Below, one piece after another: positions 26,755 to 46,018 of a DNA stretch of 64,000 nt. The notes below the pieces were generated by a model, which searched no databases, was not told the DNA's origin, and worked only from the letters and a program-made list of their open reading frames with translations. Made by a program: the position numbers and the translations under genes. Source of the DNA: Inhella proteolytica (lineage in GTDB: Bacteria > Pseudomonadota > Gammaproteobacteria > Burkholderiales > Burkholderiaceae_C); NCBI RefSeq assembly GCF_016093275.1, contig NZ_JAEDAK010000005.1, forward strand, positions 1-64,000, read 5' to 3'. Position 1 is the stretch's first letter. Each line of letters opens with the position of its first letter.

Positions 26755-27037
26755 GCCGATGGCAGAAGGCGCCCCCTGCGCTACAACGCGGAGCGTCATG
26801 CCCTCAACGAAAGGGCAGGCACCAGGGAGGAGCGAGAAGTGCCGGCTTCAAACATTGGACGGGTCATTGCCAAGGAGGCCCAGCAGCAGCAGCGGCGGCC
26901 TGCACCGCTGCTCAGTGCGGGCAGCGGGCCGAGCTGCAGCGGCGACTCGCGGCCCATGAAAGAGAGCCCACTCGAGTTGTGCCTTGGGAGGCGGTCCGCG
27001 TCGCACTGGGGCTTTCCACGACCGAGGCGGCTTCGCG

Positions 27038-27646
27038 ATGAGCCAAGCGCTGCAGCCCCTGATCCAGAGCCGCATCCTGACCCTGCGCGGCCAGCGGGTC
27101 CTGCTCGACGCCGACCTTGCTCAGCTCTACGGCGTCGAAACCCGGGCACTTGTGCAAGCCGTCAAGAGAAACCTTGCGCGCTTTCCCGAGGACTTCATGT
27201 TCACCCTCAGCGCCGAGGAGTTTGCCGACTTGAGATCACAGACTGTGATCTCAAGTGCCGCTCTTCCCGCTGTGCGCCATGGCGGTCGGCGCACCCCGCC
27301 TCTCGCCTTCACGGAGCAAGACGTCGCCATGTTGTCCTCGGTGCTGAACAGCCCGCGCGCGATCGCGGTCAACATCGAGATCATGCGCACCTTCGTGCGC
27401 GTACGTGCCTTGGCGGCCACCCATGCCGACCTGGCCCAGCGCCTGAGTGAACTGGAGGACAAGACGGCTTCGCTGGCGCTGGACCACGAACTGCTGGGGC
27501 GCAATACCCGGGCGCAGTTGAAGCAGGTGTTCGATACCTTGCGGCAATTGATGACGCCCGTGGAGCCCCCTACGCCGCCCAAGCGGCCTATCGGGTTCGT
27601 GCAACCCGACGAGTCGAATCGGGGCAAGGCCAAGGGGCGGCTATGA
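27038..27646 (+). CDS. ORF6N-domain (KilA-N-related, phage-associated) protein
   Basis: 'ILTLRGQRVLLDADLAQLYGVETRALVQAVKRNLARFPEDFMFTL' is the hallmark ORF6N motif. Real start at 27038; the track ORF adds an unsupported N-terminus. Confidence 0.75.
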   Translation: MSQALQPLIQSRILTLRGQRVLLDADLAQLYGVETRALVQAVKRNLARFPEDFMFTLSAEEFADLRSQTVISSAALPAVRHGGRRTPPLAFTEQDVAMLSSVLNSPRAIAVNIEIMRTFVRVRALAATHADLAQRLSELEDKTASLALDHELLGRNTRAQLKQVFDTLRQLMTPVEPPTPPKRPIGFVQPDESNRGKAKGRL

Positions 27647-27818
27647 GCGGGCGGCCGGGCCATGTGTCGGAACCCCTGCTGATTGAAGGCCTGCCCCCGG
27701 GTATCCGTGCCCCCGGTATGCGGCCTTTAGGACGCCTCTGGGACGCGCCTCGGGTTCTTGCATCTTTCATCGGTGAGTGCAAATTGAAAGACCCCGTCCC
27801 TGGTGCGCCCCGGGGGAA

Positions 27819-28298
27819 TTAATTTGAGACAACAATGAAAGCGCTCAACGAAGTCGCTATTGATTGTCTGTCCGCGTACGTCGCGCGAACTCGAAATACA
27901 CCAATACTATTGGCCTTCACAGAAACAGATACGGTAGAGAATCCGTCGGTTCCGATGGCAACGACTGACGGCGCTACTATGGCTCCGTGATCAATTGCTC
28001 CAAATGAATCCACAATATCCAGCATGACTTCGCCGCCAGGATTGGCCTTACGCACGTCGTCGAAATATACAGACCTCAGCCAAATTGGAACTGTTTCGCC
28101 TGCCCGAATCGTCCAAGACAAGTCTTGTCTCTGTGGCAATATGCAACACTTAGGAACTGTGCCAATTCCGACTAATACATATGTGCTATTGCGGTCTCGA
28201 ATTGGCTGAATTCGATTAGCCTGCAATGCGCAGCAGCCAACGAGCAAAAATAGAACGCCCACCGACAGTGCATGCTTGGTTCGTTGCAGGCCGCTCAT
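27819..28298 (-). CDS. Hypothetical lipoprotein/secreted protein in AT-rich islet
   Basis: Signal/lipobox-like 'LFLLVGCCALQA'. AT-rich codon usage unlike the host genome. Confidence 0.5.
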   Translation of the reverse strand: MSGLQRTKHALSVGVLFLLVGCCALQANRIQPIRDRNSTYVLVGIGTVPKCCILPQRQDLSWTIRAGETVPIWLRSVYFDDVRKANPGGEVMLDIVDSFGAIDHGAIVAPSVVAIGTDGFSTVSVSVKANSIGVFRVRATYADRQSIATSLSAFIVVSN

Positions 28299-28329
28299 GT
28301 CCCTAGCATTGCCTCATGGTGAGTGGCGT

Positions 28330-29778
28330 TTATTTACGAATTCCCAGTGCCTCTGCCTCAAGGCGATTCAATTCAGCGTCGGTCAGACTTTGAATGCGGG
28401 CAAACCGCTCGCCTGAAAATGCAGGTAGAACCTTGCCCATTTCCGCAGCCGCTGGGCTAAATGTTTCGCAGAATGACGTTCGATTGTAGAGTGCCAAGAG
28501 TCGATCGTACTGCGCTGTATTAATTTCACCGAGAGCAAGCTTTTCTTCCAACTTCAGAAGCTTGGGCTGTTTGGCTTTTGCCTCGCAGGCCATGCGCGCA
28601 TTAAAGGTGTCGATCTTTTGCTGAGTAATGCACGCTTCGCTGGCATTGCTCAAATCAGAGAACATTGATTTGGTAGCACTATTGCAGCTAACAGCAAGCA
28701 CCATCGAGGCCGGAATCCGGTAATTGAAGCGCCCCGTATAGGAAACCGTGTCTTTGTACTCAATTGTTTGCTTGAAGTGTGCACTGCTGTATCCTGCATT
28801 CACACTAACACTCCAAGGCCATGTAGCGCTGGCTCCACCGCCGCCGGGATCGCCGGCGTCCGGATTCGGTTCAAATCGAAAGAATCCATCCCCTTCGACC
28901 GCTAGTTTGTTGACGGCCTCATATATTTTTTTGACCATATCAAACACTTGACGGCCATATTTTTCGTTGTCAAGCGACCCTTCCTTCATATCAAAAGTGC
29001 AGGCCTTGGATTTTTCCAATTCCTGCTGAACCTTTGAATAGTTGAGTGAGCCGACCTTGAACCAGCCAAGCGACGCAGAGGCGCTAAATTTCGAGCGAAT
29101 TTGGGACCAAACCTGCGATAGGTCACATGATATCTTTGCGGTCCATGGGTCGCCGACAAATTCCGTCTCACCTACAAAATTTACGGCAAAAGTGGGATTG
29201 GGTTGAATGTCGAAATTGGAAGACTGTCGAGCTCCGACCACTTGTGCGAAAAGCGAATTCCCGGTGCCAATGGAGTAGGCAAAATCAGATGTGAAATTGA
29301 TTATTGATGGAAACACGACCGTAACATCCTTCTTGCCAAGCGACAACGTCTCGCTATCAAGTACAGGAGTAACGGTAACGTTCTTCAGCGAAAGTGGAAG
29401 TAGTTTTGGGTTGGCTACCCCATATGCCTTTTTGATTTCTGCAGTGAGCTCTGTTCTTTGTTTTGCCGTTATGTCAATATTGGCCGAGCCAGAGACAATG
29501 GCGCCAACAATTGAGTAAATTGCACCTGATGAATCTTGTGCCCAATGAGTCGGGCCGATTCCCCAATACTGGGCCTTAAACGCCTTGAGATTTACACCGA
29601 GGGCAAGGTCAATGCGACCAGGCTGGTAGTGGAACTGATTCTTGTCAGTGTCGTCCTGATACGCAATTACGCCGGCAACTGCAGTGCCCTTGCTGAAAAG
29701 CGGAGCGGCTGCGGCATTGCCAGAGCCCAGAATGAACATAAAGGTGAAACACCCAATTGTTGCTGAATAAGAGCGCAT
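28330..29778 (-). CDS. Hypothetical secreted 482-aa protein with SHOCT-like C-terminal helix (AT-rich islet)
   Basis: Signal peptide 'FTFMFILGSGNAAAAP'. Beta-rich body. C-terminal 'KLLKLEEKLALGEINTAQYDRLLALY' resembles a SHOCT motif. Compositionally foreign (~45-50% GC). Confidence 0.6.
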   Translation of the reverse strand: MRSYSATIGCFTFMFILGSGNAAAAPLFSKGTAVAGVIAYQDDTDKNQFHYQPGRIDLALGVNLKAFKAQYWGIGPTHWAQDSSGAIYSIVGAIVSGSANIDITAKQRTELTAEIKKAYGVANPKLLPLSLKNVTVTPVLDSETLSLGKKDVTVVFPSIINFTSDFAYSIGTGNSLFAQVVGARQSSNFDIQPNPTFAVNFVGETEFVGDPWTAKISCDLSQVWSQIRSKFSASASLGWFKVGSLNYSKVQQELEKSKACTFDMKEGSLDNEKYGRQVFDMVKKIYEAVNKLAVEGDGFFRFEPNPDAGDPGGGGASATWPWSVSVNAGYSSAHFKQTIEYKDTVSYTGRFNYRIPASMVLAVSCNSATKSMFSDLSNASEACITQQKIDTFNARMACEAKAKQPKLLKLEEKLALGEINTAQYDRLLALYNRTSFCETFSPAAAEMGKVLPAFSGERFARIQSLTDAELNRLEAEALGIRK

Positions 29779-29895
29779 GCAGTTCTCCGGTTTAGTAATT
29801 CAACTCAGTTGAGGCCTATGTTTTGCTCAGTGTGCTAGTCGACTCTCGGCAACTGTTCACCGGGAAGATGGGCAGCACCATAGGGTTTGCGCTAA

Positions 29896-29913
29896 CTCCT
29901 CATTAATGAGGAG
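29896..29913. promoter_or_regulatory. Perfect 18-bp palindrome CTCCTCATTAATGAGGAG in divergent promoter region
   Basis: Self-reverse-complementary. Lies between the start of the AT-rich 482-aa gene (minus, 29778) and the NYN gene (plus, 30052). Confidence 0.5.
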
Positions 29914-30051
29914 GACGAAGGGCCATCTGCTCGCTTCGGGGCGTTGCCTTTCGCGGCTTCGGGGAAAGGCCTTAAATCGAACCCCTTCGAACCAAAGGCC
30001 CCAGTGGGCCTCCGTGCCCCGATTAATGCTTGCCAGCCCGAACGCCGTAGC

Positions 30052-30852: not shown

Positions 30853-31794
30853 ATGAGGGAATTTTTGTTCCGCAGCCTGGGGCCCTGGCTGCTGGCCGGC
30901 CTGAGTACCAGTGTGGCGGCTGACGCACCACGCTTTGAGTTCCACAACCACTTTCTGCTGAACCTGCACCACCGGCTCTACAGCGGCGCACGCAGGCCCG
31001 CGCAGCTGACCGAGGCCGAACGTCAGGCGTGGGAGCCGGCCTTGGCGCTGTACCGGCGCGAGTACCTGCAGCGCCACCCGCTGTTTGACGAGCAGATGGA
31101 CGCCATCAAACAGAGCCTTCGACGCGCGCCGGATGCGGTTCGCACGCCGCAGGGCTTGGGCCTGCCCAAAGAGCTTGAGCAGGCCTTGGGCCTTGCCGCA
31201 TCGCTCTATGCCGAGGAATCCTGGCCGCTGGACCGGGCGCGGAATGCGCGCTGGCAGGCGGGCCTGGAAGCGCTGCAGCGGCGCCATGGTGCCGCCATCG
31301 CGAGCGGGCTTGAATTCCAACTGGGGCAGGGATTTCCGGCCGAGCCGATCCGGGTGGATCTGGTGGTCCGCACCGGGACGTTCGAAGGGGCCTACACCAC
31401 CCAGGCGCCCGCCCATGCCGTCATTGCGACCGGGCTACCCGCGCATGCAGGCCTGCACGCCTTGGAGGTGCTGTATCACGAGGCAACGCACACGGGGCCG
31501 GCGGATCGGGTGTTTGAGGCGGTCAATGCCGCTTTTCGGGATCAGGGCGGGCACGACGTGAAGAACCAATGGCACGGCGTGCAGTTCTTCATCGTGGGCG
31601 CGGTGGTGCGTGAGGCGTTGGCCCAGGCGGGGCTGCCAGGCTATGTGCCCTATGGGGAGCTGCAGGGCGTGTTTGCACGGGCCTGGCCGGGGCTGCCGCA
31701 GCGTCTGGAGTCCTTGTGGTTCCAGGGCCGCCAGCAGGGCCGCAGCGTGGAAGCGCTGGCGTCGGCTCTGGTGGCTTCGGTGCCGGCGGACTGA
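30853..31794 (+). CDS. Hypothetical secreted protein
   Basis: Signal peptide (MREFLFRSLGPWLLAGLSTSVAADA). Good codon bias. No recognised motif. Confidence 0.5.
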   Translation: MREFLFRSLGPWLLAGLSTSVAADAPRFEFHNHFLLNLHHRLYSGARRPAQLTEAERQAWEPALALYRREYLQRHPLFDEQMDAIKQSLRRAPDAVRTPQGLGLPKELEQALGLAASLYAEESWPLDRARNARWQAGLEALQRRHGAAIASGLEFQLGQGFPAEPIRVDLVVRTGTFEGAYTTQAPAHAVIATGLPAHAGLHALEVLYHEATHTGPADRVFEAVNAAFRDQGGHDVKNQWHGVQFFIVGAVVREALAQAGLPGYVPYGELQGVFARAWPGLPQRLESLWFQGRQQGRSVEALASALVASVPAD

Positions 31795-31866: not shown

Positions 31867-33102
31867 TCAGGGGTTTCGTCGGCTCTGCGCGGCCATCTCA
31901 AACGTCAGCCCCGCCCGCTCATGCAGCCGCCGCACCAGCGCCAGGCCCATGGCGCTGCCGGGGGTCCAGACGCCACCGGGCGTGGCGCTGCGGGGGATGT
32001 CCTCCACCAGGCACAGCGCGGCTTCGCTGATGAGCTTGCAGGTGGAGCCGTAGCCGGGGTCGCGGTCGCCTTTGACGATGGCCCGCAGCAGCTCGCCGGA
32101 GGCGCTCTTGCCGCTGAACCACACCTCGTAGTGGCCGGCCTCGCGGGCGGCCTTGTTGGGGCCGTCGCCCGGTTGCGTCAGCACGAAGCGGCGCAGCAGG
32201 GCGCGCGCGGGGCCGAAGCCCAGCACGCGGTTCTGCCAGCGGGTCATGCGGGCCAGCGCCTGGGCCTTCTTGGCGCCCTTGTCGGGCGTGCCGGGGCGGC
32301 CGGTGAGCATCTTTTCGCTGTACACGAAGTCCCGGCCCCAGGGGTGGCCGCGCAGGGCGTTGCTGCGGTGCACGTTCTTGGTGTTGATGGCGGCCATCAC
32401 GAAGGGCCCGGCCCAGAGGTCCGCCCAATCGTCCAGGGCGGCGCCCTGGTCATCGGGCTGCGTGGGGCCCTTGAACCCGGGCGTCAGGGCAAAGGGGTCG
32501 CTCATCGTCTGGCCCAGCGCGGGTTCGCGGCGGATGGCCTCGAAGGTCTCCATCATGCTGGCCAGCGTGCCGCCTGAGGCCGCGCCCTTCATGCGCGCCA
32601 TGCGGGCGCGCACCTCGCGCAAGGGGGCGCCCAAGCGCTCCTGCGCCTGGGCCTGCAGATAGACCACGCCGAGGTCGAAGGGGATGGAGTCGAAGCCGCA
32701 CGAGAACACGATGCGCGCGCCGCTTTGCTGCGCCAGCGGCGTGAGCTTGTCGATCATCCGGGCCATCCACAGCGGCTCGCCGCAGAGGTCCACGTAGTCG
32801 GTGCCGGCCTCGGCGCAGGCGGTGACCAAGGGCTCGCCATGCAGCTGATACGGACCGACGGTGCTGATGACGACCCGCGTGCGCGCCACCAGGGCCCGCA
32901 GCGCGGCCGCATCGCCGGCATCGGCCTGGAGCAGGGGCAGGTCCTTGGGCAGGCCCAGCTCGTCGCGCACGGCGGCCAGCTTGGCGGCGTTGCGGCCCGC
33001 GATGGCCCAGCGGGTGGCGCCGCGGGCCTGCAGGTATTCGGCCACCAGGCGGCCGGTGAATCCGGTGGCGCCGAAGACGATCAGGTCGAAGTCGGGGTTC
33101 AT
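31867..33102 (-). CDS. Saccharopine dehydrogenase NAD(P)-binding domain protein (trans-acting enoyl reductase-like)
   Basis: 'DLIVFGATGFTGRLVAEYL' Rossmann motif and the overall pattern of the saccharopine dehydrogenase-like oxidoreductase family. Confidence 0.8.
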   Translation of the reverse strand: MNPDFDLIVFGATGFTGRLVAEYLQARGATRWAIAGRNAAKLAAVRDELGLPKDLPLLQADAGDAAALRALVARTRVVISTVGPYQLHGEPLVTACAEAGTDYVDLCGEPLWMARMIDKLTPLAQQSGARIVFSCGFDSIPFDLGVVYLQAQAQERLGAPLREVRARMARMKGAASGGTLASMMETFEAIRREPALGQTMSDPFALTPGFKGPTQPDDQGAALDDWADLWAGPFVMAAINTKNVHRSNALRGHPWGRDFVYSEKMLTGRPGTPDKGAKKAQALARMTRWQNRVLGFGPARALLRRFVLTQPGDGPNKAAREAGHYEVWFSGKSASGELLRAIVKGDRDPGYGSTCKLISEAALCLVEDIPRSATPGGVWTPGSAMGLALVRRLHERAGLTFEMAAQSRRNP

Positions 33103-33417
33103 GGGGTGTCCTGCTTGGCTGAGGGGCGGGTGGCGCGGGAGCCCGCCGCGTGGAAGGCGCCGCAGCGGTGGGCGGCTGAGGTTCAGCCTTGCGCCAGAGG
33201 CTTCAGTGGCAGATCTTGCCTTTTGCTTTCAATGGCAAGAGCGTCACGCGCGGGCTCTCGCTGCCACAGGCTTGGCCGGGCAGGTCATTGCCTATTTGGC
33301 GCCCGGCCTGGGGTGGGTGACTCCTGCGCTGCCGATCATTGCCCTTCAGCAAGCCATTGGGGGGGCATGGCCCTGCGATAGGCTCGCCTGCTCCGCCAGC
33401 GCCCCACCTCACCTCCC

Positions 33418-34599
33418 TTGGTAGCACCAATGTTCATGAAATTGCATGCGCCGCGATGCACGCCCCAGGCCGTCATCAAGCACTGGTGCGGGCTGCTGAT
33501 CGGTATGGCCTTGATTCAGCCAGGCTTTGCCGCCACGGCTGGAGATGCGGGGACTGCCACGGCAAGACAGCGGGCGCGCAACGACAACACGATCGTGGCG
33601 GTGTCGCGCATCTTTGAGCTTCGCCGTATCGCGGCACCGCTGTGCAGCGCAGAGCCGCAATGGGATTGGGTCCAGCAACTCATCTTGGTGCGAAAGCCTG
33701 AACGCTGGGCGTTCTCCACGGACCGGGCTCTGGCTGAGATCCTGAATCGGCACTTCGAAGCCAAGCCAGGCGAGTTGATTGTGTTGGTGGACCAGCGAAG
33801 CGGTTCGTTCAAGCTGCCCGGTGGTCTGAAGGCGGGTGACCGCATCTTGGCCGCCGACGCGTCCGAAGCCGAACTCTTGATCCGTCGGCCCTTGGAAGGC
33901 GAGTTCCATGCCGACACCCAGGAACGTTTGCGTCGAGCCAATGAATGGGCTCGGAGCCAACCCTCACGAACCCTCCAGCTGATTCGTCAAGGCCAGACCC
34001 TGAAGCTCGACATTGAGCCGATTCCGATCTGCGCGATGCGCTTTGGCGTGGTGAACAGCGAGACCGCCTATGCGGCTGCTCGGTCTGATCTCATTCTGGT
34101 CACCCATCCTCTTCTGGAGCAACTGAGCGCAGACGAACTCACGATGGTGCTGGCCCACGAGGCGGCTCAGGTGCTGCTGGCCCTGACGGATCCCAACAAG
34201 CCAACCAACTGGAAATCAGGAGCTTGGCCCTTGTTGGGCGGCAACTCGCAATGGAATCGCGAGCTGGGACTCGGCGCGCCGACGCTGGAGAGCTTGATCG
34301 AGGCCGATCGTCTGACGGTGATGCTGCTGGAGCCCTTCGGGCTGGGGCCCCAGGAATACCTCGAGTTTCTGGCGCGGGTTCAAGCGGCGGAGCCAGGTGG
34401 CATGTTCCGTCCGACCTACGCCAACTTGCGGCCCGTGGCTGAACAGAGGCTGGAAGCCGTGCGATCGCTGCACGCGAATCGCCAGGCGGAAGGTCGCTGG
34501 ACGCTGAAGCCGCAAGGCATTTCCGAAGCAGCGTTTCGGGCCTTCCTCGATCACCTGGGCAACGAACAGACCCGCATCAAGGCGCAGTCGAATCCTTGA
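33418..34599 (+). CDS. Hypothetical secreted protein (PDZ-like segment; degenerate metalloprotease-like 'HEAAQ')
   Basis: Hydrophobic N-terminus. 'GDRILAADASEAELL' is PDZ-like. 'MVLAHEAAQVL' is HExxH-like but lacks the second His. Start uncertain. Confidence 0.45.
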   Translation: MVAPMFMKLHAPRCTPQAVIKHWCGLLIGMALIQPGFAATAGDAGTATARQRARNDNTIVAVSRIFELRRIAAPLCSAEPQWDWVQQLILVRKPERWAFSTDRALAEILNRHFEAKPGELIVLVDQRSGSFKLPGGLKAGDRILAADASEAELLIRRPLEGEFHADTQERLRRANEWARSQPSRTLQLIRQGQTLKLDIEPIPICAMRFGVVNSETAYAAARSDLILVTHPLLEQLSADELTMVLAHEAAQVLLALTDPNKPTNWKSGAWPLLGGNSQWNRELGLGAPTLESLIEADRLTVMLLEPFGLGPQEYLEFLARVQAAEPGGMFRPTYANLRPVAEQRLEAVRSLHANRQAEGRWTLKPQGISEAAFRAFLDHLGNEQTRIKAQSNP

Positions 34600-34747
34600 C
34601 GCGCGCCGATCGTGCCCCACGCCGCTCAGGATTGCCAGAAGCACGCAACCACCCTGCCGCTTCTGGGTCGGGTCTTACTCCCTGACTTCAATAGCAAGAC
34701 TTCAATCCGGCCCTCGCGAGGGCCCCTTGGCGCCGGGCGCGTGAAAC

Positions 34748-34984
34748 TCAGTCCCACCTCCCGCAACAAGCGCATCACCTGGGGGGTGATGATGTCCACC
34801 GCCGGGCCGTTGGCGCCGTGCGGCAGGATCACGTCGGCGTTGCGCTCGGTCGGTTCGATGAACTGCTTGTGCATCGGGCACACGGTTTCCAGGTACTGAT
34901 TGACCACCTATGTGCTGCGGCCGCGCTCGGAAATGTCGTGCTGCAGGCGGCGGATGAAGCGCATGTCCGAGGCCGTGTCCACGT
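34748..34984 (-). pseudogene. Duplicated, frameshifted copy of the 3' end (about the last 80 codons) of uridine kinase
   Basis: About 90% nucleotide identity to 37706-37945. Translates as '...VVNQYLETVCPMHKQFIEPTERNADVILPHGANGPAVDIIT...', but a short indel near 34905 breaks the frame. No upstream kinase portion (P-loop) is present. Confidence 0.7.
34748..34984. repeat. Direct repeat copy 1 (~240 bp) of the udk 3' region
   Basis: Aligns with 37706-37945 with only a few mismatches/indels (e.g. ...GTGATGATGTCCACCGCCGGGCCGTTGGCGCCGTGCGGCAGGATCACGTCGGCGTTGCGC...). Confidence 0.8.
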
Positions 34985-35002
34985 ATAGCCGGCGTGCGGA
35001 GT

Positions 35003-37501
35003 TCACCCTTCCAAATAGGGCAGTCCGCTGCCCGCCAAGCCCACGAGGTCGATTTGCTGCGCGGTCATTGGAAGTTCACAGGCCATTCGAGCCAGTACCG
35101 CCTGACTGGTCTCCCCGCGATCCAGTTGACCGACGAACTCAGCCAGGGTCGCTTCCGATGGGGCTTGCCCGACCACGTTCTGGTAGACCGTCCGGACGAA
35201 ATCAGCGTGTCCGTGCGATCCGGCGCGCTCGGCAAACAAGTCCGAAGCCACGGCCGCTGCGACCAACTCTCCAAAGGCCATGCCGCCATCGAGGTATCGC
35301 AAGCCAAGGCCAACCAGTGACGCATCGGTCAAGGTGGCTTTGCCAAACAGCGCACCGATCAGCCGGGCCACTTGACCGGCATGACCTTCCAAATCAAGTG
35401 CCAGCGCCGGACCCTGGCTGAACACCAAGCGCTCAACCTGCTGCAAGAGATCTCCCTGGCTTTCGGCGCCAGATCCTTCGACGACCACCTGCTGCGCCGA
35501 GATTTGCACTCGATGCTGCGCAAGGCTGTAGGAATACAGGGCTCGGTCTATTCCATTCCCGCCATCAATGACATCGGCGCCCGGCCCGCCCTCAATGCGG
35601 TCGGCGCCATCACCACCGAATAGCCAGTCGGCTTCGGCCCCACCCCGCAAGATGTCGGCGCCCGGGCCGCCCCTGACCAAGAGTCCCTGGAAGTTCAGAC
35701 CTGGCAGGGGGCCTAGCGAGGCAAGCTGGGAACCTCCCCCAGGGTGATCATCAGGGCGGATTTCGGTGACGCTCAGTGTGTAGGTGCCCAAGCCCATGCT
35801 CTTGAGGTAATAACTTCCGCTCCGGCCTGGCTCAACCTCCAGCACGCCCGTAGGTGGCATCTCAAAACCCGTGGGGTGCAACTTGTCGTCCAACAGGTGC
35901 AGACTGTCGGCAACTCCGTCGCGGCCGCCTTTGTGTTCAATCTGGTACCGCTTGCCTGCTTCGAGATTCAGTCGAAATAGGTCAATATCACCCAGCGTCA
36001 ATTCGTGCTGGAGTACCTGATTCAGATTGACTGGTGTTGAGCTGTTCGAAGTTTCTCCGTGATCATCCTGTTCAATCCGAATGCGCTGAATGGTGTAGCC
36101 GCGCGAGCTACGATCCACGGGATGGTCGTTGGCGCCAATGATTAGATGCTGAAGACCACTGGTACTTGGGGTAAAGCTAAAAATGTAGGCCTTGGGGTTG
36201 TCCGGATCTTGCTGGAACCAGCTGTCAATCGAGCCTTCGCTGAATCCTTCAAATGTGCCCCGGTCTTTGAGAAGCTGAAGCAAGGGGCGCGAGCCGCTAC
36301 CCACTTCCACCCGGAATAAGGAACGCTCATATATTGTCGAGACCGAGAACCGGTACCAATCAGTATCGCCGGCGCCGTATAGAGTTGATTGTTCCAAGCG
36401 CCCAACCGGCATGAACAAGGCATTCTGCGGGCCGTTGTTCTGATCGCTTTCAGGATAGGGCGACCTCAGACGCGCCTCATAGTCCGATGGCAATGCAGAG
36501 CTGTTTGCCTCGGGGGCCGCTCGAAGCCAATAACTACCGGTTGTCGGAGGGATGAATAGCACTTCGCCAACGCCCCGGACAAATTCGATCCCTTGGGCAT
36601 CATGGATGCTGACCTTGGATTCCGATGGCAAGCCCTTCTTCAGCACAGTAATGTTGATCGGGGTGCCGGCAACCAAATAGACCGGAACCCAATCCACATC
36701 CTGAGGATTGCTTAGATCGAGTGGTGCTATTGGGAACTGGGCTTGCAGTGATTGCACTAATCTGAGATCGCTCGGTGCAAGTGGGAAATTCGGGTAATCG
36801 TCTTCGGCAGCAAAGCTGTACTGAGTAAGGCCAAGACGATAGTTTGTTGCGGAATATTCTTGAGTGGCTGCCTTGCCTGACGGTGTTGCCCCAACGGTCA
36901 CAAAGTAGGAGCTGCCCGACGGTGTGGAGAAATCAAAATCTATCAGGCCATCGCTATTGGACTGCCACTCATTGATAAGGGTCGCATCCCTCTCGTCAAA
37001 ACCTCGGTAGAGTTTGACAACAATTCCCGACGCGGCGTTTGAAGCACCCGTCAGATCCAGCTGGAACTGATAACGCTGGCCAGAGTTCAAGTCCAGAGAG
37101 AAGCTGTCCACGTCGCCGCGTGTCTCCAGTTGGCCGGGAAGTGTTTGGCCCACCAGCAGCTTCTCGGTCCGAGTGACGCGATCGGAATGGTCATCGACCG
37201 GCAACGGTGCGGCCTCAATCTCGTACTGAACCGAATGGTTCAAGCCCGAGTGACCGGTCAGGACAAGCTGATACCAGCCCGTAGTTTCAGGCGAACCCAC
37301 GAGCTCCGCGCCTTGAGAAACGGAGCTGGCAGTGGAAAAAAGGACCTTGCCTTCGCCGCTTTGAAGCTTGAGTTCGCTGCCAAAGCTCGAGGCTCCTGAA
37401 GGCGTCTTGACAGTGAAACGGTAGCGCTGGCCTGCCTGCAGAAAGACGCTGAAGGCGTCGGCGTCTCCATCGCCATCCATCTGGCCCTGAACGGTGCTCA
37501 T
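35003..37501 (-). CDS. Secreted Ca2+-binding RTX-repeat protein with pre-peptidase-C-terminal-like (PPC) domains and C-terminal DUF4214
   Basis: Start at 37501 with GGGAGGG RBS. Repeated 'GDxDxFxxxLxxGQRYxF' PPC-like units. 'GGPGADILRGGAEADWLFGGDGADRIEGGPGADVIDGGNGID' hemolysin-type nonapeptide repeats. 'FVRTVYQNVVGQAPSEATLAEFVGQL' is DUF4214. GC lower than host (~55%). Confidence 0.75.
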   Translation of the reverse strand: MSTVQGQMDGDGDADAFSVFLQAGQRYRFTVKTPSGASSFGSELKLQSGEGKVLFSTASSVSQGAELVGSPETTGWYQLVLTGHSGLNHSVQYEIEAAPLPVDDHSDRVTRTEKLLVGQTLPGQLETRGDVDSFSLDLNSGQRYQFQLDLTGASNAASGIVVKLYRGFDERDATLINEWQSNSDGLIDFDFSTPSGSSYFVTVGATPSGKAATQEYSATNYRLGLTQYSFAAEDDYPNFPLAPSDLRLVQSLQAQFPIAPLDLSNPQDVDWVPVYLVAGTPINITVLKKGLPSESKVSIHDAQGIEFVRGVGEVLFIPPTTGSYWLRAAPEANSSALPSDYEARLRSPYPESDQNNGPQNALFMPVGRLEQSTLYGAGDTDWYRFSVSTIYERSLFRVEVGSGSRPLLQLLKDRGTFEGFSEGSIDSWFQQDPDNPKAYIFSFTPSTSGLQHLIIGANDHPVDRSSRGYTIQRIRIEQDDHGETSNSSTPVNLNQVLQHELTLGDIDLFRLNLEAGKRYQIEHKGGRDGVADSLHLLDDKLHPTGFEMPPTGVLEVEPGRSGSYYLKSMGLGTYTLSVTEIRPDDHPGGGSQLASLGPLPGLNFQGLLVRGGPGADILRGGAEADWLFGGDGADRIEGGPGADVIDGGNGIDRALYSYSLAQHRVQISAQQVVVEGSGAESQGDLLQQVERLVFSQGPALALDLEGHAGQVARLIGALFGKATLTDASLVGLGLRYLDGGMAFGELVAAAVASDLFAERAGSHGHADFVRTVYQNVVGQAPSEATLAEFVGQLDRGETSQAVLARMACELPMTAQQIDLVGLAGSGLPYLEG

Positions 37502-37705
37502 GAGTTGTCCCTCCCCGAAAAGGCGGCGGATGCTACGTGAGGGGGGCCGAGTGCGATGCGCCATGCCCGCTGGGCGTGGGAAGCGCTGGTGTCAGGCCCA
37601 TAGCTTGGGGCGGACTTCGGCGACTGTCCTGCCGAAGACTGACTTCCATAGGGGAATCTGTCCCCAGCCCTGAGCCGCCCCGATGTCAGAGCGTCAAGCG
37701 CGGCA

Positions 37706-37945
37706 GGCTCAGCCCTGCCCCATCTCCCGCAACAAACTCATCACCTTGGTGGTGATGATGTCCACCGCCGGGCCGTTGGCGCCGTGCGGCAGGATCACGT
37801 CGGCGTTGCGCTTGGTCGGTTCAATGAACTGCTTGTGCATCGGGCGCACGGTTTCCAGGTACTGATTCACCACCGATTCGGTGCTGCGGCCGCGCTCGGA
37901 AATGTCGCGCTGCAGCCGGCGGATGAAGCGCACGTCCGAGGCCGT
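37706..37945. repeat. Direct repeat copy 2 (inside intact udk)
   Basis: See copy 1. Together they bracket the ~2.7-kb RTX-gene insert. Confidence 0.8.
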
Positions 37946-38350
37946 GTCCACGTAGATCTTCAGCGACATCATGTTGCGCAGCTTGGTGTCGTACAGCGCG
38001 AACAGGCCCTCGACCACGATGATGGGCGCCGGCTTGACGGTGATGGTCTCGTGCGAGCGGTTGTCGGCCGCGAAGTCGTACACGGGCATCTCGATGGCCT
38101 CGCCCTTGCGCAGTGCGGCCAGATGCTGGGCCATCAGCGGCCAGTCGAAGGCATCCGGGTGGTCGTAGTTCTGCTTGCGCCGGTCTTCCGGCGGCATGTG
38201 GGATTGGTCGCGGTAGTAGTCGTCCTGCATCACCACCGCCACTTTCTCCGGCCCGATGGCGGCCAGCACCTGGCGAGTCACCGTGGACTTGCCGCTGCCG
38301 CTGCCCCCGGCGACACCGATGACGAAAGGTTTGTGGGGGTTCTTGGGCAT
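37709..38350 (-). CDS. udk: Uridine kinase
   Basis: P-loop 'VIGVAGGSGSGKST' and full-length uridine/cytidine kinase pattern. Confidence 0.85.
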   Translation of the reverse strand: MPKNPHKPFVIGVAGGSGSGKSTVTRQVLAAIGPEKVAVVMQDDYYRDQSHMPPEDRRKQNYDHPDAFDWPLMAQHLAALRKGEAIEMPVYDFAADNRSHETITVKPAPIIVVEGLFALYDTKLRNMMSLKIYVDTASDVRFIRRLQRDISERGRSTESVVNQYLETVRPMHKQFIEPTKRNADVILPHGANGPAVDIITTKVMSLLREMGQG

Positions 38351-38432
38351 GGGGGTCCGGCGCGGGGTGGGGGAAGCCGGCGAATTTTGCCGGCTGGCAC
38401 ACTGCCGCCGCCCTCCACCCGATCACGCCGTC

Positions 38433-38951
38433 ATGAACCCAGCTGAAATCCCGTCGTCTGCTGTCCGCGGTATCGAGGCGCGGCAAGTGTTCCAGTGGCT
38501 GAGCTATGCGCAGTACCCCGCCCTGCTGGTGACGACGGTCTACATGGTTCAAGCCGTGATCGCGCTGACCGCCTTCCGCACCGCGGGCTGGGGGCCGGTG
38601 TTCGATCTGCTGAACCTGGTGCTGCTCTACGGCGGCGTGGCCATCGGCCTTTCGTCGTTGCAGGACCCGAGCAAGACGCAGAACAAGATCTCGCGACGCG
38701 TCTGGATGGATCCGGCCAAGGGCCGGGTGCTGCTCTGGGTCCTGGCCCTGGAGGCCTTCGTGCCGATCGCGCTGGGCCTGGTGGGGGCCTCGCTCGCCAA
38801 AGACACGGTGGTGAGCCAGCTGGCCTTGGGCCTGGTGGCCTTCGGCCTGGGCATGATCGGCCTGCTGAAGACGGCCATCGAGATGCGCGAGCACCATCGC
38901 CTGGATCGCGTGCCGGCAGCGCCCCCGGCCGCGGCCGGCGCTGGGTCCTGA
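38433..38951 (+). CDS. Hypothetical integral membrane protein
   Basis: Four predicted TM helices and codon bias. Start at MNPAEIP. Confidence 0.5.
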   Translation: MNPAEIPSSAVRGIEARQVFQWLSYAQYPALLVTTVYMVQAVIALTAFRTAGWGPVFDLLNLVLLYGGVAIGLSSLQDPSKTQNKISRRVWMDPAKGRVLLWVLALEAFVPIALGLVGASLAKDTVVSQLALGLVAFGLGMIGLLKTAIEMREHHRLDRVPAAPPAAAGAGS

Positions 38952-39062
38952 TCCGCAGCCGTGCCCCGCTGGGGGCGCAGGCGCTCCCAGACGGCGCTGC
39001 CCCGACAATGCGCGCCCGCCAAGTCTTGGCCCCCTTTCCCTTCAAGCAATCGACGTACGGCC

Positions 39063-41142: not shown

Positions 41143-41456
41143 GACGCAGGCGGCAGGCTGGGCGAGGGCTGCCAGCTTAGTTCTGCTTGCGCGTGGGCCA
41201 GGGGTTGGCAGCGCGCGCAGGGGCGGGAAGGCGGCATAAGGTCGCACGGCTGCGGGTCGGCCCTGGGCAGCGGAGCAGGCGGCTGCCGGCCAGCCCCCGA
41301 TAGAGTCGCGCCCCGGCCCGCTTGACTCCAGAGTGGAATCCGGATGGGCCGCGGAATGGCCGAAGTAGCCGGAGTTGCGGGCCTCGCGGCGCCGCATCCC
41401 ATCGAACGCATCGCGATCAGAGGGCGAGTGCACTTGCCCCATCAGGAAGGAGCCCC

Positions 41457-43145
41457 ATGTCCCACCCATCCATGGCCAGGGTCGCTGCGGCCTCGCCACA
41501 GCCCGCAACGGTCTGGCAGATGCTGCCGTTCTGTCTGCGCCTGCCGTTGCGCTTCGGCCCCTTGGTGTTCCTGGGCAGTCTGGCCCTCGCCGCCGTTCTG
41601 GCCAGCCTGGTGCTGGGCGCCTTTGGGCTGGTGTTCAAGGGCATCCTGATCTTTCTGGGCCTGCGCTACGGCTTCAACATGCTGGAGCTGCTGTCGCGGG
41701 GGCGGTTCGAGGGGGAATCACCGAACTTCTCGGTCTGGGGCGGCAGCGACCGCCGCCCGGGCAAGTTGGCGCTGGTGCTGACGCTGTTCATCGTGCTCGG
41801 CGGCCTGCTGGGCAATCTGGTGCTCGATCGTCGTATCGCCAATGACACCAAGACGCAGGACGCGCTGGTGCGCATCTACGAGGCGCAGAACGCCGAGTCC
41901 CTGCAGGTCTTGCGCCGCGAGCACGAGGCACTGGCCGCGGCACGTGCGGCCGCGGTGGCTGAACGCGAGCGTCAACGCGCGCGGCAGCTGGCGGCCGCGC
42001 CGGCAGAGGGAGAAGACGGCGCCGAAGGCGAGTCGGCAGTGGAGCTGGGCCCTGCCGATCTGGAAAGCGAGTTCACGGCGCATGCCCTGCCCAGCCGGGA
42101 GGAGATGGTGCAGGCCGCCCGCCCCCAGACCTTTGCCGCGGCCTGGTTTTCGCTGCTACCGGCCTGGTACTGGCTGGTGGCCGCGCTCACGAGCCTGCTG
42201 CTGCCGGCGGCGGCGCTGGTCATCGCCACCGAGGATGCGTTCTTTCAAAGCCTGAACCCGCTGAACGTCGCCCGCTTCGTGGGCGCCATGGGGGCCGAGT
42301 ACTTCACGCTCTGGGGCCTGTTCCTGTTGATTGCCGGCGTGCGCCACGCGGTGCTGGTGATGGGCACCGGCTGGCCGACAGCGGTGGCCTTTCCCATCGA
42401 GCTGACGCTGGCCACCTATCTGTTCTGGGTGCTGTGCGCGCTGATGGGCTATGCGCTGTACCGCCATCACGAGGCGCTGGGCCACGAAGTGGAGTTTGAC
42501 TTCGAGACCCAGCAGCGCGCCGGTGGCGTGGAAGCCATTGCCCGCGCCGGCAGCACCGAACGCGCGCTGCGTGCCCAGCAGCCGACCGACCCCTTCGAAC
42601 GCCGCGTGCACGAGCTGCTGGCCGACGGAAAGATCGACGCTGCGATTGATGTGGTGCGCGACGAAATGCGCTACGACCGCTTGGACGCGCCGCTGAACCT
42701 GCGCCTGCACGCGCTGCTGCAGCGCCAGGGGCAGCGCGAGGCCATCCTGGCCCATGGGCCGCAACTGCTGCGCGCCTTGGCGCGGGCGGAACGCGGCAAG
42801 GACCTGCTGGCGGCCCTGCAAGATTTGCGCAAGCTCGATCCGTCGGTCGAGCTGCCCGACGGGGTGGGCACGGCAGCCGCCGCCGAGGCCGCCCTCGCGA
42901 AGGGCGACGCAAGCAGCGCCACGCAGCTGCTCAAAGGCTTCGACAAGCGCTGGCCCCAGCACCCCGAAGCGCCGCGCGTCTACTTTCTGGGCGCTCGCCT
43001 GATGAGCGAGCACGGGCGCGACCACGACCGTGCCGCACGCCTGCTGCAAGGGCTGCTCGCGCGCTTCCCCGAGCACGCCGTGGTGGCCGAGGCGCAGCAG
43101 TACCTGCAGGTGCTGGAACGCATGCGCAAGCCCGGCGCGGCCTGA
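41457..43145 (+). CDS. Polytopic membrane protein with C-terminal TPR-like helical domain
   Basis: Start MSHPSMARV preceded by GGAAGGAG RBS. About 8 TM helices. C-terminal helical repeats. Confidence 0.55.
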   Translation: MSHPSMARVAAASPQPATVWQMLPFCLRLPLRFGPLVFLGSLALAAVLASLVLGAFGLVFKGILIFLGLRYGFNMLELLSRGRFEGESPNFSVWGGSDRRPGKLALVLTLFIVLGGLLGNLVLDRRIANDTKTQDALVRIYEAQNAESLQVLRREHEALAAARAAAVAERERQRARQLAAAPAEGEDGAEGESAVELGPADLESEFTAHALPSREEMVQAARPQTFAAAWFSLLPAWYWLVAALTSLLLPAAALVIATEDAFFQSLNPLNVARFVGAMGAEYFTLWGLFLLIAGVRHAVLVMGTGWPTAVAFPIELTLATYLFWVLCALMGYALYRHHEALGHEVEFDFETQQRAGGVEAIARAGSTERALRAQQPTDPFERRVHELLADGKIDAAIDVVRDEMRYDRLDAPLNLRLHALLQRQGQREAILAHGPQLLRALARAERGKDLLAALQDLRKLDPSVELPDGVGTAAAAEAALAKGDASSATQLLKGFDKRWPQHPEAPRVYFLGARLMSEHGRDHDRAARLLQGLLARFPEHAVVAEAQQYLQVLERMRKPGAA

Positions 43146-43158
43146 GGCCCACCAGGGC

Positions 43159-43629
43159 TCAGCCGGCCTTGCGCTCCACCACCGCCACCGCCGGCGTGCA
43201 GCGCAGCTGGGCCTCGGCCTGGCCGCGCCGCTTGGGCAGGAAGTGGCAGTGCCGCACGGGCTCGGGCAGTTGCAGCACGCGCCGTGTCTGGTCCTGGTAC
43301 TGGCAGTGCACCCAGACCTGGCGGCCGGCCTGGTAGACGTAGGCCAACGGCCAGCTGTCGCGGCCCTGCGCATCGGGTTCGGGCACCAGCGAGGCCAGCT
43401 CTTCCGGTGGGCCGTCGAACACGGTCACCTGGCGCAGGGCGCTTGCAGGCTGGCTGGGGCAGACGGATACCCAGGGGCTTGGGTCGGCCCGCGCCAGCAG
43501 CGGTGCGGCCAGGGCCAACAGGGTGACCGCCCCGCTCCAAAGCGGGCTGAGGCTCGCCCTGACCCCAGAGGGCCGCCGGCCGTCGCGGGTCGGGGTGATG
43601 CAGGGGTCGGGGCGGGCCATGTCAGGCAT
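43159..43629 (-). CDS. Hypothetical secreted protein
   Basis: Signal-like N-terminus, Cys-containing. Weak evidence only. Confidence 0.35.
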   Translation of the reverse strand: MPDMARPDPCITPTRDGRRPSGVRASLSPLWSGAVTLLALAAPLLARADPSPWVSVCPSQPASALRQVTVFDGPPEELASLVPEPDAQGRDSWPLAYVYQAGRQVWVHCQYQDQTRRVLQLPEPVRHCHFLPKRRGQAEAQLRCTPAVAVVERKAG

Positions 43630-45742: not shown

Positions 45743-46018
45743 TGCAAAGTCCTTGGTGACGATGCCTGGCACTCTAGGAATCCGGCGTGCCGCCGGCATC
45801 GGCCAAACGGGCCATTGCGGGGCTCAAGAAGGACCAGAGACCCCTGGGTGCGGGGGGCCTGGCGGGGCTGTCCATGTCGGAAGTGATGGGGTGGGCATGG
45901 ACGCCCAGCCCGCAAGACCTCGAATTGGATGTTTTTTGGATCGCCCACCGGCGCACCGGCGCCCCGCTGAGGCGCCGCCTCGTGAATCATGGCCGCACCA
46001 CTTCCAAGAGGGTCTCCC

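What the first reader, a model, noticed from the sequence alone, without database searches (positions are those of the whole stretch)
34748..37945. RTX/PPC/DUF4214 gene inserted at the 3' end of udk, flanked by ~240-bp direct repeats
The last ~80 codons of udk occur twice in direct orientation (34748-34984 and 37706-37945, about 90% identical; the distal copy is frameshifted). The repeats bracket ~2.7 kb of lower-GC DNA whose only gene encodes a secreted Ca2+-binding RTX-repeat protein with PPC domains and a DUF4214 tail.

This is the footprint of site-specific integration into the 3' end of a housekeeping gene: the element restores the gene end and leaves a displaced copy. No integrase remains here, so this may be a decayed islet or the product of an unusual duplication-insertion.
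Basis: seen in the sequence. Interest (0 to 1): 0.6.

Follow-up and report, generated by a model that had tools for sequence, protein, structure and literature searches.

The report
Leftover udk gene-end beside inserted genes
A decaying second copy of the last 80 codons of the uridine kinase gene marks the join between two foreign single-gene insertions in a gene-swapping hot spot just after that gene; it is an ordinary recombination scar, and nothing found here points to a mobile element with its own integrase.

Summary
The last ~80 codons of udk occur twice in direct orientation (37719-37954 inside the intact gene; 34745-34985 as a fragment, 93-94% identical). They bracket one low-GC gene for an orphan PPC/RTX/DUF4214 protein.

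The integration-footprint reading is only partly supported. The window is Inhella proteolytica. A close relative (L081, identical Udk protein, ~97% nt) has udk followed after 33 nt by a saccharopine-dehydrogenase-like gene (SDH). Relative to it the window has 4,570 extra bases (33130-37699), starting ~9-12 nt after the udk stop and running 1.6 kb beyond the distal repeat to include a second foreign gene (M48-like). A third relative has a different 1.1-kb cassette there.

The distal copy is a decaying pseudogene that groups with the window's own udk. I found no recombinase in 21.6-50.3 kb, no recombinase family recurring downstream of udk in 81 genomes, and no phage, virus or plasmid carrying a udk 3' segment. 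Two Roseateles/Paucibacter genomes have similar arrays, each with one fragment fewer than cassettes, and one has the same kind of repeat at another gene.

Most likely (about 0.55) this is integrase-independent recombination that joined two alternative udk-downstream arrangements. Interest is low to moderate.

The parts
37709..38350 (-). Intact udk (uridine kinase), 213 aa
   Evidence: Pfam PRK, E = 3.5e-50. The protein is identical to that of relative L081. It is ~90% nt identical to udk of 80 Sphaerotilaceae species.
37719..37954 (-). Proximal repeat copy: udk nt 397-632, inside the intact gene
   Evidence: the repeat finder families D1 and D2. Alignment A1.
37565..37708 (-). Spacer between the udk stop and the RTX ORF. 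Only its first ~9-12 nt match the udk-SDH spacer of L081.
   Evidence: The blastn block L081 9953-10654 = window 38398-37700 ends here. Alignments A2 and A5. A 13-mer CTATGGAAGTCAG lies at 37639-37651.
35003..37564 (-). Cassette 1: orphan secreted-type protein, 853-aa ORF (832 aa from the NCBI start at 37501). By eye it has about five PPC-like modules. It also has four GGxGxD RTX nonapeptides and a DUF4214 tail.
   Evidence: Pfam HemolysinCabind, PPC and DUF4214. GGxGxD motifs at aa 611-652. GC3 is 0.63. It is 100% identical to an Inhella proteolytica protein. Only three other, partial hits (17-68% of the query covered) were found in a 5.8-billion-sequence protein database.
34745..34985 (-). 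Distal repeat copy: a 5'-truncated udk pseudogene fragment (udk nt 397 to ~640). It starts 17 nt after the RTX stop codon.
   Evidence: nhmmer E = 3.7e-72. It has a 3-nt deletion, a TAG at 34910-34908 and a terminal 5-nt gap. It carries 12 private substitutions, 9 of them at first or second codon positions, mostly at sites invariant in 46 species.
33418..34599 (+). Cassette 2: M48-like peptidase-domain protein, 393-aa ORF (387 aa in NCBI), convergent with the udk fragment
   Evidence: Weak Pfam Peptidase_M48 match: 20.4 bits against a cut-off of 20.3. GC3 is 0.73. Near-orphan: one 73% hit on a 1.5-kb contig and one 33% hit. Absent from L081.
33130..37699 (.). All window-specific DNA relative to the empty udk|SDH site of L081 (4,570 bp). 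It comprises cassette 1, the udk fragment and cassette 2.
   Evidence: L081 9953-10654 = window 38398-37700, and L081 10651-13826 = window 33129-29967. The two blocks overlap by 4 nt, CCGC. GC is 0.605.
31867..33102 (-). Core flank: saccharopine-dehydrogenase-like gene (SDH). In L081 it starts 33 nt after the udk stop.
   Evidence: Pfam Sacchrp_dh_NADP, E = 4.1e-15. L081 gene table. GC3 is 0.94.

Best explanation
The space between the udk stop codon and the SDH start codon is a cassette hot spot in the Inhella proteolytica group. In the window it holds two unrelated, horizontally acquired single-gene cassettes: the PPC/RTX/DUF4214 gene and the M48-like gene. The udk 3' fragment between them is a scar of the event that put the two cassettes in series.

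Proposed mechanism: two alternative arrangements, udk-RTX and udk-M48like-SDH, were recombined using one homologous exchange and one non-homologous join. Three routes give this product.
(a) A Campbell-type single crossover of a circularised donor fragment [udk nt 397 to stop, spacer, RTX] into the resident udk.
(b) Homology-facilitated illegitimate recombination anchored on the udk side.
(c) The same, anchored on the SDH side, with the donor fragment [udk nt 397 to stop, M48like, SDH] joined illegitimately 17 nt after the RTX stop.

All three leave an intact udk upstream and a promoterless, 5'-truncated copy that has since decayed. Selection explains why a 3' end is what gets duplicated: only then does one full udk copy survive. 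No element-encoded integrase or specific att site is involved.

Shown:
- the insertion relative to an empty site;
- two compositionally distinct cassettes;
- the decay and lineage of the fragment;
- no recombinase detected;
- recurrence of the pattern elsewhere.

Inferred:
- the recombination route itself;
- the existence of the two parental arrangements.
For: - Empty site. L081 has udk, 33 nt, then SDH. The window has 4,570 extra bp that run past the distal repeat.
- Hot spot. L082 has a different 1.1-kb SBP_bac_3-like cassette between udk and SDH. L093 has other DNA upstream of SDH.
- Variable neighbourhood. Across 80 species udk is ~90% nt conserved, but essentially nothing flanking it is shared with the window. 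The downstream ORFs of 81 genomes fall into 232 families among 309 ORFs.
- Two cassettes. GC3 is 0.63 for RTX and 0.73 for M48-like, against 0.92-0.94 for host genes.
- Fragment history. It has 12 private substitutions, 9 at first or second codon positions, plus indels and a nonsense codon. It shares 6 of 8 window-versus-L081 variants with the intact copy, which has only 2 private synonymous changes. So both copies come from the same lineage or population and the fragment has drifted neutrally.
- Cassette and fragment counts. The window has 2 cassettes and 1 fragment. L016 and L055 each have 3 cassette blocks and 2 fragments, with none next to the core. Joining alternative arrangements predicts this. 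Tandem site-specific integration predicts equal numbers.
- Not udk-specific. L055 has a 179-nt direct repeat of the MmyB-regulator gene's 3' end around [udk fragment + PIN7].
- Variable fragment starts: udk nt 397 in the window, 444 and 461 for the longer fragments, ~563-565 for the shorter ones.
- No recombinase found. None in the window at 21.6-50.3 kb, in the L016 or L055 arrays or upstream of udk in L016. No recombinase family is matched by 2 or more of 114 family representatives downstream of udk.
- No mobile record. No udk 3' segment in viral contigs, phages or true plasmids.
- Local divergence. Divergence between the window and L081 tends to rise next to several indel borders. This weakly suggests import by flanking homologous exchange.
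Against: - Neither parental arrangement (udk-RTX-SDH or udk-M48like-SDH) was found. Both cargo proteins are near-orphans, so donors cannot be identified.
- The arrangements predicted for the other clade (udk-MmyB, udk-PIN7) are also unseen among 80 species.
- The illegitimate junction (34985/34986) cannot be checked for microhomology without a parental sequence.
- A trans-acting recombinase elsewhere in the genome cannot be excluded from a 64-kb window.
- All fragments share the last ~80 nt of udk. A conserved crossover core would give the same pattern.
- The Pfam survey of neighbours listed only the 25 commonest of 123 families and covered ORFs of 280-480 aa. A single odd integrase could have been missed.
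- L029 carries the same cargo as L016 without fragments. That needs an extra deletion step.
Confidence: 0.55

Rival explanations
1. A decayed integrase-mediated island, of the cis-mobilizable-element (CIME) or tandem-accretion type. An element carrying an attP that contains the udk 3' end integrated site-specifically and restored the gene, as e14 does at icd. It later lost its integrase, or was always mobilised by an integrase acting in trans. The M48-like gene would be an older element whose own distal fragment has been deleted.
For: - The topology is what such integration produces: an intact gene, foreign DNA, then a displaced 3' fragment.
- Three independent genomes have arrays, and every fragment includes the last ~80 nt of udk.
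- The cargo is compositionally foreign.
- Integrase-less elements that keep attL and attR, and their accretion in tandem, are documented (PMC5704250).
- e14 leaves a 163-bp icd' pseudogene (PMC6379469).
Against: - No integrase in the window at 21.6-50.3 kb, in the L016 or L055 arrays, or recurrent downstream of udk in 81 genomes.
- No viral, phage or plasmid sequence with a udk 3' segment.
- The inserted DNA is not bounded by the repeats. The last cassette lacks a distal fragment in all three arrays.
- Fragment lengths differ: about 246, 182-209 and 69-90 nt.
- The intact copy's 3' end shows no foreign signature against L081. Divergence is 2.3% in the 5' part (9 of 396 nt) and 3.3% in the 3' part (8 of 246 nt), and the fragment shares 6 of those 8 variants.
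- The same kind of repeat occurs at a different gene in L055.
Confidence: 0.2
2. A purely intragenomic duplication-insertion. A segment beginning at udk nt 397 was duplicated in place, by tandem duplication or repair synthesis at a break. Foreign DNA carrying the RTX gene was captured between the copies, with no donor udk sequence involved.
For: - The two copies are each other's closest relatives, 93-94% identical, against at most 92.5% (intact copy) and 88.7-89.4% (distal copy) to any other species.
- They share the window lineage's variants relative to L081.
Against: - The spacers downstream of the two copies are not significantly similar apart from one 13-mer (p = 0.33 without it). A recent in-place duplication that included the spacer would have kept about 95% identity there.
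- A tandem-duplication route needs a second RTX copy to be deleted precisely.
- No known repair pathway gives a ~240-bp target duplication around captured DNA (my own knowledge, not tested).
- It does not explain why the M48-like cassette is also absent from L081.
Confidence: 0.1
3. Assembly or annotation artefact: the second copy is a mis-assembled read pile-up of udk.
For: None specific. Repeats of this size can confuse short-read assemblers.
Against: - The copies differ at 12 or more substitutions and two indels. Their flanks are unique on both sides.
- The RTX and M48-like proteins are recorded identically in the NCBI Inhella proteolytica annotation on a 302,701-bp contig.
- Analogous fragments occur in independent assemblies.
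Confidence: 0.02

Closest known systems
Minimal mobile elements (Saunders & Snyder 2002; Snyder 2007): variable gene cassettes between specific conserved flanking genes, exchanged by homologous recombination in the flanks (described in PMC3787668)
   Same: - A defined intergenic slot, from the udk stop to the SDH start, holds different gene content in the closest relatives: 33 nt, 1.1 kb or 4.57 kb.
- The cassettes are one gene each and carry no mobility genes.
   Different: - Here two cassettes are stacked, with a partial copy of a flanking gene between them. One end of at least one event was therefore not a clean homologous exchange.
- The same cassette was not found at the same site in a distant genome, which is the usual evidence for transfer by flanking homology, because the cargo genes are orphans.
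- Natural transformation is not known for this organism. I did not test it.
Homology-facilitated illegitimate recombination and Campbell-type insertion-duplication (de Vries & Wackernagel 2002; Prudhomme 2002; Meier & Wackernagel 2003, as summarised in PMC6382021)
   Same: - One homologous anchor plus one non-homologous join explains the structure: intact gene, foreign DNA, 5'-truncated copy with an arbitrary start point.
- It also explains the variable fragment lengths, the lack of a recombinase, and the occurrence at another gene (the MmyB repeat in L055).
   Different: - These are laboratory-defined pathways in naturally transformable bacteria. Here the pathway is inferred from a scar.
- The microhomology at the join and the RecA dependence cannot be checked.
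- The classical pathway usually deletes recipient DNA rather than duplicating it (my own knowledge, not tested).
e14 / phage 21 integration into icd, and other integrases that target gene 3' ends (PMC6379469)
   Same: The gene end is duplicated: a 163-bp icd' pseudogene there, a ~240-bp udk' fragment here. The functional gene is kept intact upstream of the inserted DNA.
   Different: - e14 encodes its integrase, and its att repeats are the exact element boundaries.
- Here there is no integrase. The repeats do not bound the inserted DNA. The empty-site junction lies after the stop codon.
Cis-mobilizable elements (CIMEs) and tandem accretion at the fda 3' end in Streptococcus (Pavlovic 2004; Bellanger 2011, as reviewed in PMC5704250)
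   Same: Integrase-less DNA lies between att-like direct repeats derived from a gene's 3' end. Cassettes are arranged in series.
   Different: - A CIME is defined by retained attL and attR of an integrative element family that is present in related strains.
- No such element family, integrase or attP was found for udk.
- Fragment counts are one fewer than cassette counts.

Membership tests
Integrase-mediated integrative element at a gene 3' end (e14/icd type, or its decayed CIME form) | Direct repeats (attL/attR), one of them inside the 3' end of the target gene, which stays intact | tested here: met
   Repeats at 37719-37954 and 34753-34985. The intact Udk protein is identical to that of L081.
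Integrase-mediated integrative element at a gene 3' end (e14/icd type, or its decayed CIME form) | A tyrosine or serine recombinase in the element or, for a CIME, in related elements that use the same site in related genomes | tested here: not met
   No recombinase among the ORFs scanned at 21.6-50.3 kb. None in the L016 or L055 arrays or upstream of udk in L016. No recombinase family among those matched by 2 or more of 114 neighbour families from 81 genomes (the list was truncated, so a single case is not excluded). The rest of the genome was not available.
Integrase-mediated integrative element at a gene 3' end (e14/icd type, or its decayed CIME form) | The repeats are the element boundaries: an empty site equals one repeat followed directly by the flank found after the distal repeat | tested here: not met
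   In L081 udk is followed by SDH after 33 nt. In the window the distal repeat is followed by 1.6 kb of further non-core DNA, the M48-like gene. No udk fragment lies next to SDH.
Integrase-mediated integrative element at a gene 3' end (e14/icd type, or its decayed CIME form) | An attP-bearing free or mobile form that carries the gene's 3' segment | tested here: not met
   No udk relative or udk 3' pattern in IMG/VR viral contigs. None in INPHARED phages. The only plasmid-collection hits are full udk genes in large enterobacterial and Aeromonas replicons. Integrative conjugative elements as such were not searchable.
Minimal-mobile-element-like cassette site | Different gene content among the closest relatives between the same two conserved flanking genes | tested here: met
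   The udk|SDH slot holds 33 nt in L081, a 1.1-kb SBP-like gene in L082 and 4.57 kb in the window.
Minimal-mobile-element-like cassette site | Cassettes lack their own mobility genes | tested here: met
   The only genes are RTX/PPC/DUF4214 and M48-like.
Minimal-mobile-element-like cassette site | The same cassette at the same site in more distant genomes, showing exchange through flanking homology | tested here: inconclusive
   Both cargo proteins are near-orphans in a 5.8-billion-sequence protein database. None of 80 species has them near udk. Divergence rising near indel borders is only suggestive.
Homology-facilitated illegitimate recombination / Campbell-type insertion-duplication | One homologous junction, and one illegitimate junction at a short microhomology, relative to identified parental sequences | not testable with these tools
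   No parental arrangement (udk-RTX or udk-M48like) was found. The junction at 34985/34986 has no identifiable partner sequence.
RTX (repeats-in-toxin) type I secretion substrates, for the cargo protein | Tandem GGxGxD nonapeptide Ca2+-binding repeats | tested here: met
   HemolysinCabind, E = 3.7e-15, 2 stretches. Four GGxGxD motifs at aa 611-652 of the 832-aa form.
RTX (repeats-in-toxin) type I secretion substrates, for the cargo protein | A cognate type I secretion system (ABC transporter, membrane fusion protein, TolC-like) and a C-terminal secretion signal | not tested
   None of the ORFs scanned between 21.6 and 50.3 kb matched a transporter family. The rest of the window and the genome were not examined.

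The most novel reading that the evidence does not exclude
The 3' end of udk could be a recurrent docking site for a cassette-accretion system in Sphaerotilaceae that has not been described. Single-gene cassettes would be added in series by a recombinase encoded elsewhere in the genome, or by a dedicated RecA-dependent circle-integration route. Each addition would leave a udk 3' relic. In the Roseateles/Paucibacter clade a ~40-nt palindromic motif at cassette borders would act as a second recombination site.
Probability: 0.1. Interest if true: 0.6.

Novelty: new member of a known kind. Interest (0 to 1): 0.27.

Why it matters
The locus is a clean, datable example of how single orphan genes are stacked next to a conserved housekeeping gene without any mobile-element machinery. 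The dead gene-end acts as a marker for the join between two formerly alternative arrangements.

It carries two practical lessons. First, direct repeats of a gene's 3' end are not enough to call an integrative element. A comparison with an empty site, and a count of fragments against cassettes, separates the two cases. Second, the RTX ORF has stayed open over 2.5 kb while the neighbouring 240-nt fragment gained 12 substitutions, two indels and a stop codon. That suggests the orphan RTX gene is kept by selection.

Beyond this, the locus is an ordinary product of genome plasticity.

Tried and rejected
- Further decayed udk fragments, especially next to SDH and in the 27-30 kb low-GC block. I searched the window with an 80-species nhmmer profile and found none.
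- Synteny of the window with 80 species' udk loci by tblastn, blastn and tblastx. Essentially none; tblastx at loose thresholds gave only GC-rich noise.
- Integrases. Pfam scans of window ORFs, the L016 and L055 arrays, L016 upstream and 114 representative neighbour ORFs found none. The last listing was truncated to 25 of 123 families.
- Donors of the cargo. Homology searches for the RTX and M48-like proteins returned only the organism's own proteins plus a few partial or short-contig hits. Exact-protein look-ups for the RTX protein failed.
- An attP-like udk segment in viral contigs, phages and plasmids. None found.
- Homology of the two spacers downstream of the udk copies. Not significant apart from one shared 13-mer. 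The first scoring scheme, was flawed and I redid it.
- The Roseateles border motif in the window. No significant match.
- Rfam and promoter/terminator scans of 32.5-39.5 kb. Nothing of note.
- The predicted simple arrangements udk-MmyB and udk-PIN7 among 80 species. Not found.
- A divergence gradient around the cassette site against L081. Divergence is heterogeneous and only weakly suggestive.
- Literature search for udk as an integration site. Nothing relevant.


Full report
**Observation.** The repeats are real. The repeat finder reports 34753-34924 matching 37719-37890 (91%) and 34912-34985 matching 37881-37954 (96%). The register shifts by 3 nt between the two families, and the pairwise alignment shows a sharp 5' boundary at udk nt 397. 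A DNA profile of udk from 80 species matches the second copy at 34987-34745 (profile positions 395-640, E = 3.7e-72) and finds no further copy in the window. It is the only long dispersed repeat in the 64 kb.

The intact udk is 37709-38350 (-), 213 aa, PRK family. The distal copy has an in-frame 3-nt deletion, a TAG nonsense codon at 34910-34908 and a 5-nt gap just before the stop. The two copies are 93-94% identical.

Between them lies one credible gene, 35003-37564 (-), with HemolysinCabind, PPC and DUF4214 matches and four GGxGxD nonapeptides. GC is 0.585 there against 0.686 for the window. GC3 is 0.63 against 0.92-0.94 for udk and the neighbouring core gene.

**Organism and cargo.** The RTX protein and the neighbouring M48-like protein (33418-34599, +) are each 100% identical to proteins of Inhella proteolytica, on a 302,701-bp contig. 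Both are near-orphans in a database of 5.8 billion sequences. udk is about 90% nt identical to udk in 80 Roseateles, Paucibacter, Pelomonas, Inhella and Rhodoferax species.

**The empty site.** An exact-protein look-up of Udk returned L081 (GCA_046348345.1). It shares 93-97% nt identity with the window in collinear blocks. In L081 udk is followed after 33 nt by a saccharopine-dehydrogenase-like gene (SDH), which is window 31867-33102.

- L081 9953-10654 aligns to window 38398-37700, and L081 10651-13826 aligns to window 33129-29967.
- The window therefore has 4,570 extra bases, 33130-37699.
- This extra DNA begins ~9-12 nt after the udk stop codon.
- It contains the RTX gene, then 17 nt later the udk fragment, and then a further 1.6 kb with the M48-like gene.

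So the repeats do not bound the insertion. No udk fragment lies between the M48-like gene and SDH. The two cargo genes differ in composition (GC3 0.63 and 0.73), which fits two separate acquisitions.

A metagenomic relative, L082 (SDH 95% nt), has a different 1.1-kb cassette between udk and SDH, an SBP_bac_3-like gene. L093 has yet other DNA upstream of SDH. The udk|SDH spacer is thus a cassette hot spot.

More widely, none of the 80 species shares the window's udk flanks. ORFs downstream of udk in 81 genomes fall into 232 families among 309 ORFs, and most are ordinary accessory genes. Relative to L081 the window has several other single-gene indels nearby, including one directly upstream of udk at 38399-38991.

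**History of the two copies.**

- Among 46 close species, the distal copy's differences from the intact copy are almost all derived in the distal copy.
- Against L081, the distal copy has 12 private substitutions. Nine are at first or second codon positions, mostly at sites invariant across species. It also has the indels.
- The intact copy has only two private, synonymous changes, at nt 528 and 615.
- At 6 of the 8 sites in nt 397-642 where the window's udk differs from L081's, the distal copy carries the window's state.
- The intact copy differs from L081 at 9 of 396 sites (2.3%) in the 5' part and 8 of 246 sites (3.3%) in the 3' part, all synonymous.

Both copies therefore descend from the window lineage's own udk, or from that of a very close donor. 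The fragment has drifted without selection. I see no sign that the functional 3' end came from a distant element.

The spacers downstream of the two copies are not significantly alike, apart from a 13-mer, CTATKGAAGTCAG, at about +58. This argues against a recent in-place duplication that included the spacer.

The RTX ORF has stayed open over 2.5 kb during the time the fragment decayed. I infer from this that it is maintained by selection.

**Recurrence.** Two of the 80 species loci also carry udk 3' fragments downstream of an intact udk.

- L016: 12352-12587 (udk nt 461-642 plus 59 nt of spacer) and 13888-13971.
- L055: 12898-13106 and 15422-15505.

Between and after the fragments lie the following:

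- SBP_bac_3 with YggL (L016), or with GAF and response-regulator genes (L055);
- an MmyB-type regulator;
- PIN7, followed in L016 by macro-domain (DarG-like) and DarT ORFs.

The fragments are themselves decayed, and the short one is shared by both genomes. In each array the last non-core block is not followed by a fragment: three blocks, two fragments.

L055 also has a 179-nt direct repeat of the 3' end of the MmyB gene around [udk fragment + PIN7]. The same kind of scar therefore occurs at another gene.

L029 is a close relative of L016. It has the SBP and MmyB genes but no fragments. The segment it lacks is flanked in L016 by two copies of a ~40-nt palindromic motif, which is concentrated in the variable DNA downstream of udk in that clade. 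The motif is not in the window.

**Tests of the integrase model.**

- No recombinase or transposase family matched any ORF scanned between 21.6 and 50.3 kb.
- None matched in the L016 or L055 arrays or upstream of udk in L016.
- Among 114 representative ORFs of 280-480 aa from the 7 kb downstream of udk in 81 genomes, no recombinase family was matched by two or more. The listing showed only 25 of 123 families, so a single instance cannot be excluded.
- No viral contig, phage or genuine plasmid carries a udk relative or the conserved udk 3' segment.
- Fragment start points differ: udk nt 397 (window), 444 and 461 (long fragments), ~563-565 (short fragments).

**Mechanism.** The structure is A, X, A', Z, core. 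A is udk, A' is its 5'-truncated 3' end, and X and Z are non-core. This is what results when two alternative arrangements, A-X and A-Z-core, are joined by one homologous exchange and one non-homologous join. There are two ways to get there.

- A Campbell-type single crossover of a circularised [A' + X] fragment into the resident udk.
- Homology-facilitated illegitimate recombination anchored in udk or in SDH. This pathway is RecA-dependent and was documented in Acinetobacter, Pseudomonas stutzeri and Streptococcus pneumoniae (PMC6382021).

This model predicts one fragment fewer than cassettes, arbitrary fragment starts, no recombinase, and occurrence at other genes. All four were observed. Selection against loss of udk explains why the duplicated part includes the gene's 3' end. 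I give this 0.55.

It remains an inference. The parental arrangements were not found, either here or for the other clade, and the illegitimate junction cannot be examined.

The main rival is a decayed or trans-mobilised integrative element, of the e14/icd or CIME type (PMC6379469; PMC5704250). It shares the topology but fails three of its four defining features as tested here. I give it 0.2. A purely intragenomic duplication-insertion gets 0.1, and an artefact 0.02.

**Comparison with known systems.** The slot behaves like a minimal mobile element site: different cassettes between the same conserved genes in close relatives, with no mobility genes (PMC3787668). The added feature is an imprecise event that left a flanking-gene relic. 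I file it as a new member of a known kind.

**Limits.**

- Only 64 kb of the genome was visible.
- The species-level collection holds one genome per species.
- L081, L082 and L093 are a MAG-type or metagenomic contigs.
- The ORF filter for the neighbour survey was heuristic.

Noticed in passing
window 27000-30000: A block with GC ~0.49 holds orphan ORFs (28330-29778, 482 aa; 27819-28298, 159 aa) and lies next to an ORF6N/KilA-N-type protein (26984-27646). In the close relative L081 this block is replaced by a 1340-aa protein plus a ParE toxin/antitoxin pair. It sits between a DUF3686/AAA 1695-aa ATPase gene and an NYN-domain gene. It looks like a second variable, possibly defence-related, slot.
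   Followed up: partly
window 38399-38991: About 590 bp directly upstream of udk carry a small membrane-protein-like ORF (~38427-38951, no Pfam match). L081 has only ~19 nt at this position. udk therefore has lineage-specific insertions on both sides.
   Followed up: partly
window 41256-43164 and 46298-48011: Two further differences from L081. One is a 1.9-kb window-only segment with a 607-aa orphan ORF. The other is a replacement: an AraC-family regulator here, a trypsin/PKD/PPC protease in L081.
   Followed up: no
L016 10655, 11666, 12542, 12599; L029 11653, 12966, 17626; also L022, L044, L046, L055: A ~40-nt partly palindromic motif, GGGGACTTCAAATTTAAGGCCTGACCCTCATGCC. Fourteen of 15 hits lie in the variable DNA downstream of udk. 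In L016 two copies flank the [yggL + udk fragment] segment, which L029 lacks while keeping a single copy. It may be a substrate for cassette gain or loss. It is absent from the window.
   Followed up: partly
L055 15243-15421 and 16338-16516: A 179-nt direct repeat (88%) of the 3' end of the MmyB-type regulator gene flanks [short udk fragment + PIN7 gene]. This is the same kind of gene-end duplication at a different gene.
   Followed up: partly
L016 14074-17414; L029 13074-17184: The slot next to the core downstream of udk holds a PIN7 gene, a macro-domain (DarG-like) ORF and two DarT ORFs in L016. In the close relative L029 it holds a 1108-aa DEAD-box helicase plus an unknown gene. This looks like an exchangeable defence-gene slot.
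   Followed up: no
window 30880-31629: There are no differences from L081 over about 750 nt, against a background of about 3% divergence. This suggests a recent recombination tract shared by the two lineages.
   Followed up: no
window 34682-34694 and 37639-37651: The 13-mer CTATKGAAGTCAG occurs exactly twice in the window, about 58 nt downstream of each udk copy. The spacers are otherwise dissimilar. It could be a conserved terminator or regulatory element, or the last trace of spacer homology.
   Followed up: partly
window 49262-50326: An AstE/AspA-like gene lies directly downstream of udk in many Rhodoferax loci. In the window it lies 11 kb away on the other side of udk, in inverted relative orientation. 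This points to an old rearrangement with an end near udk.
   Followed up: no
window 43685-45799: A 704-aa DUF5122 beta-propeller repeat protein. Its internal ~175-nt periodic repeats account for the other repeat families found in the window.
   Followed up: no
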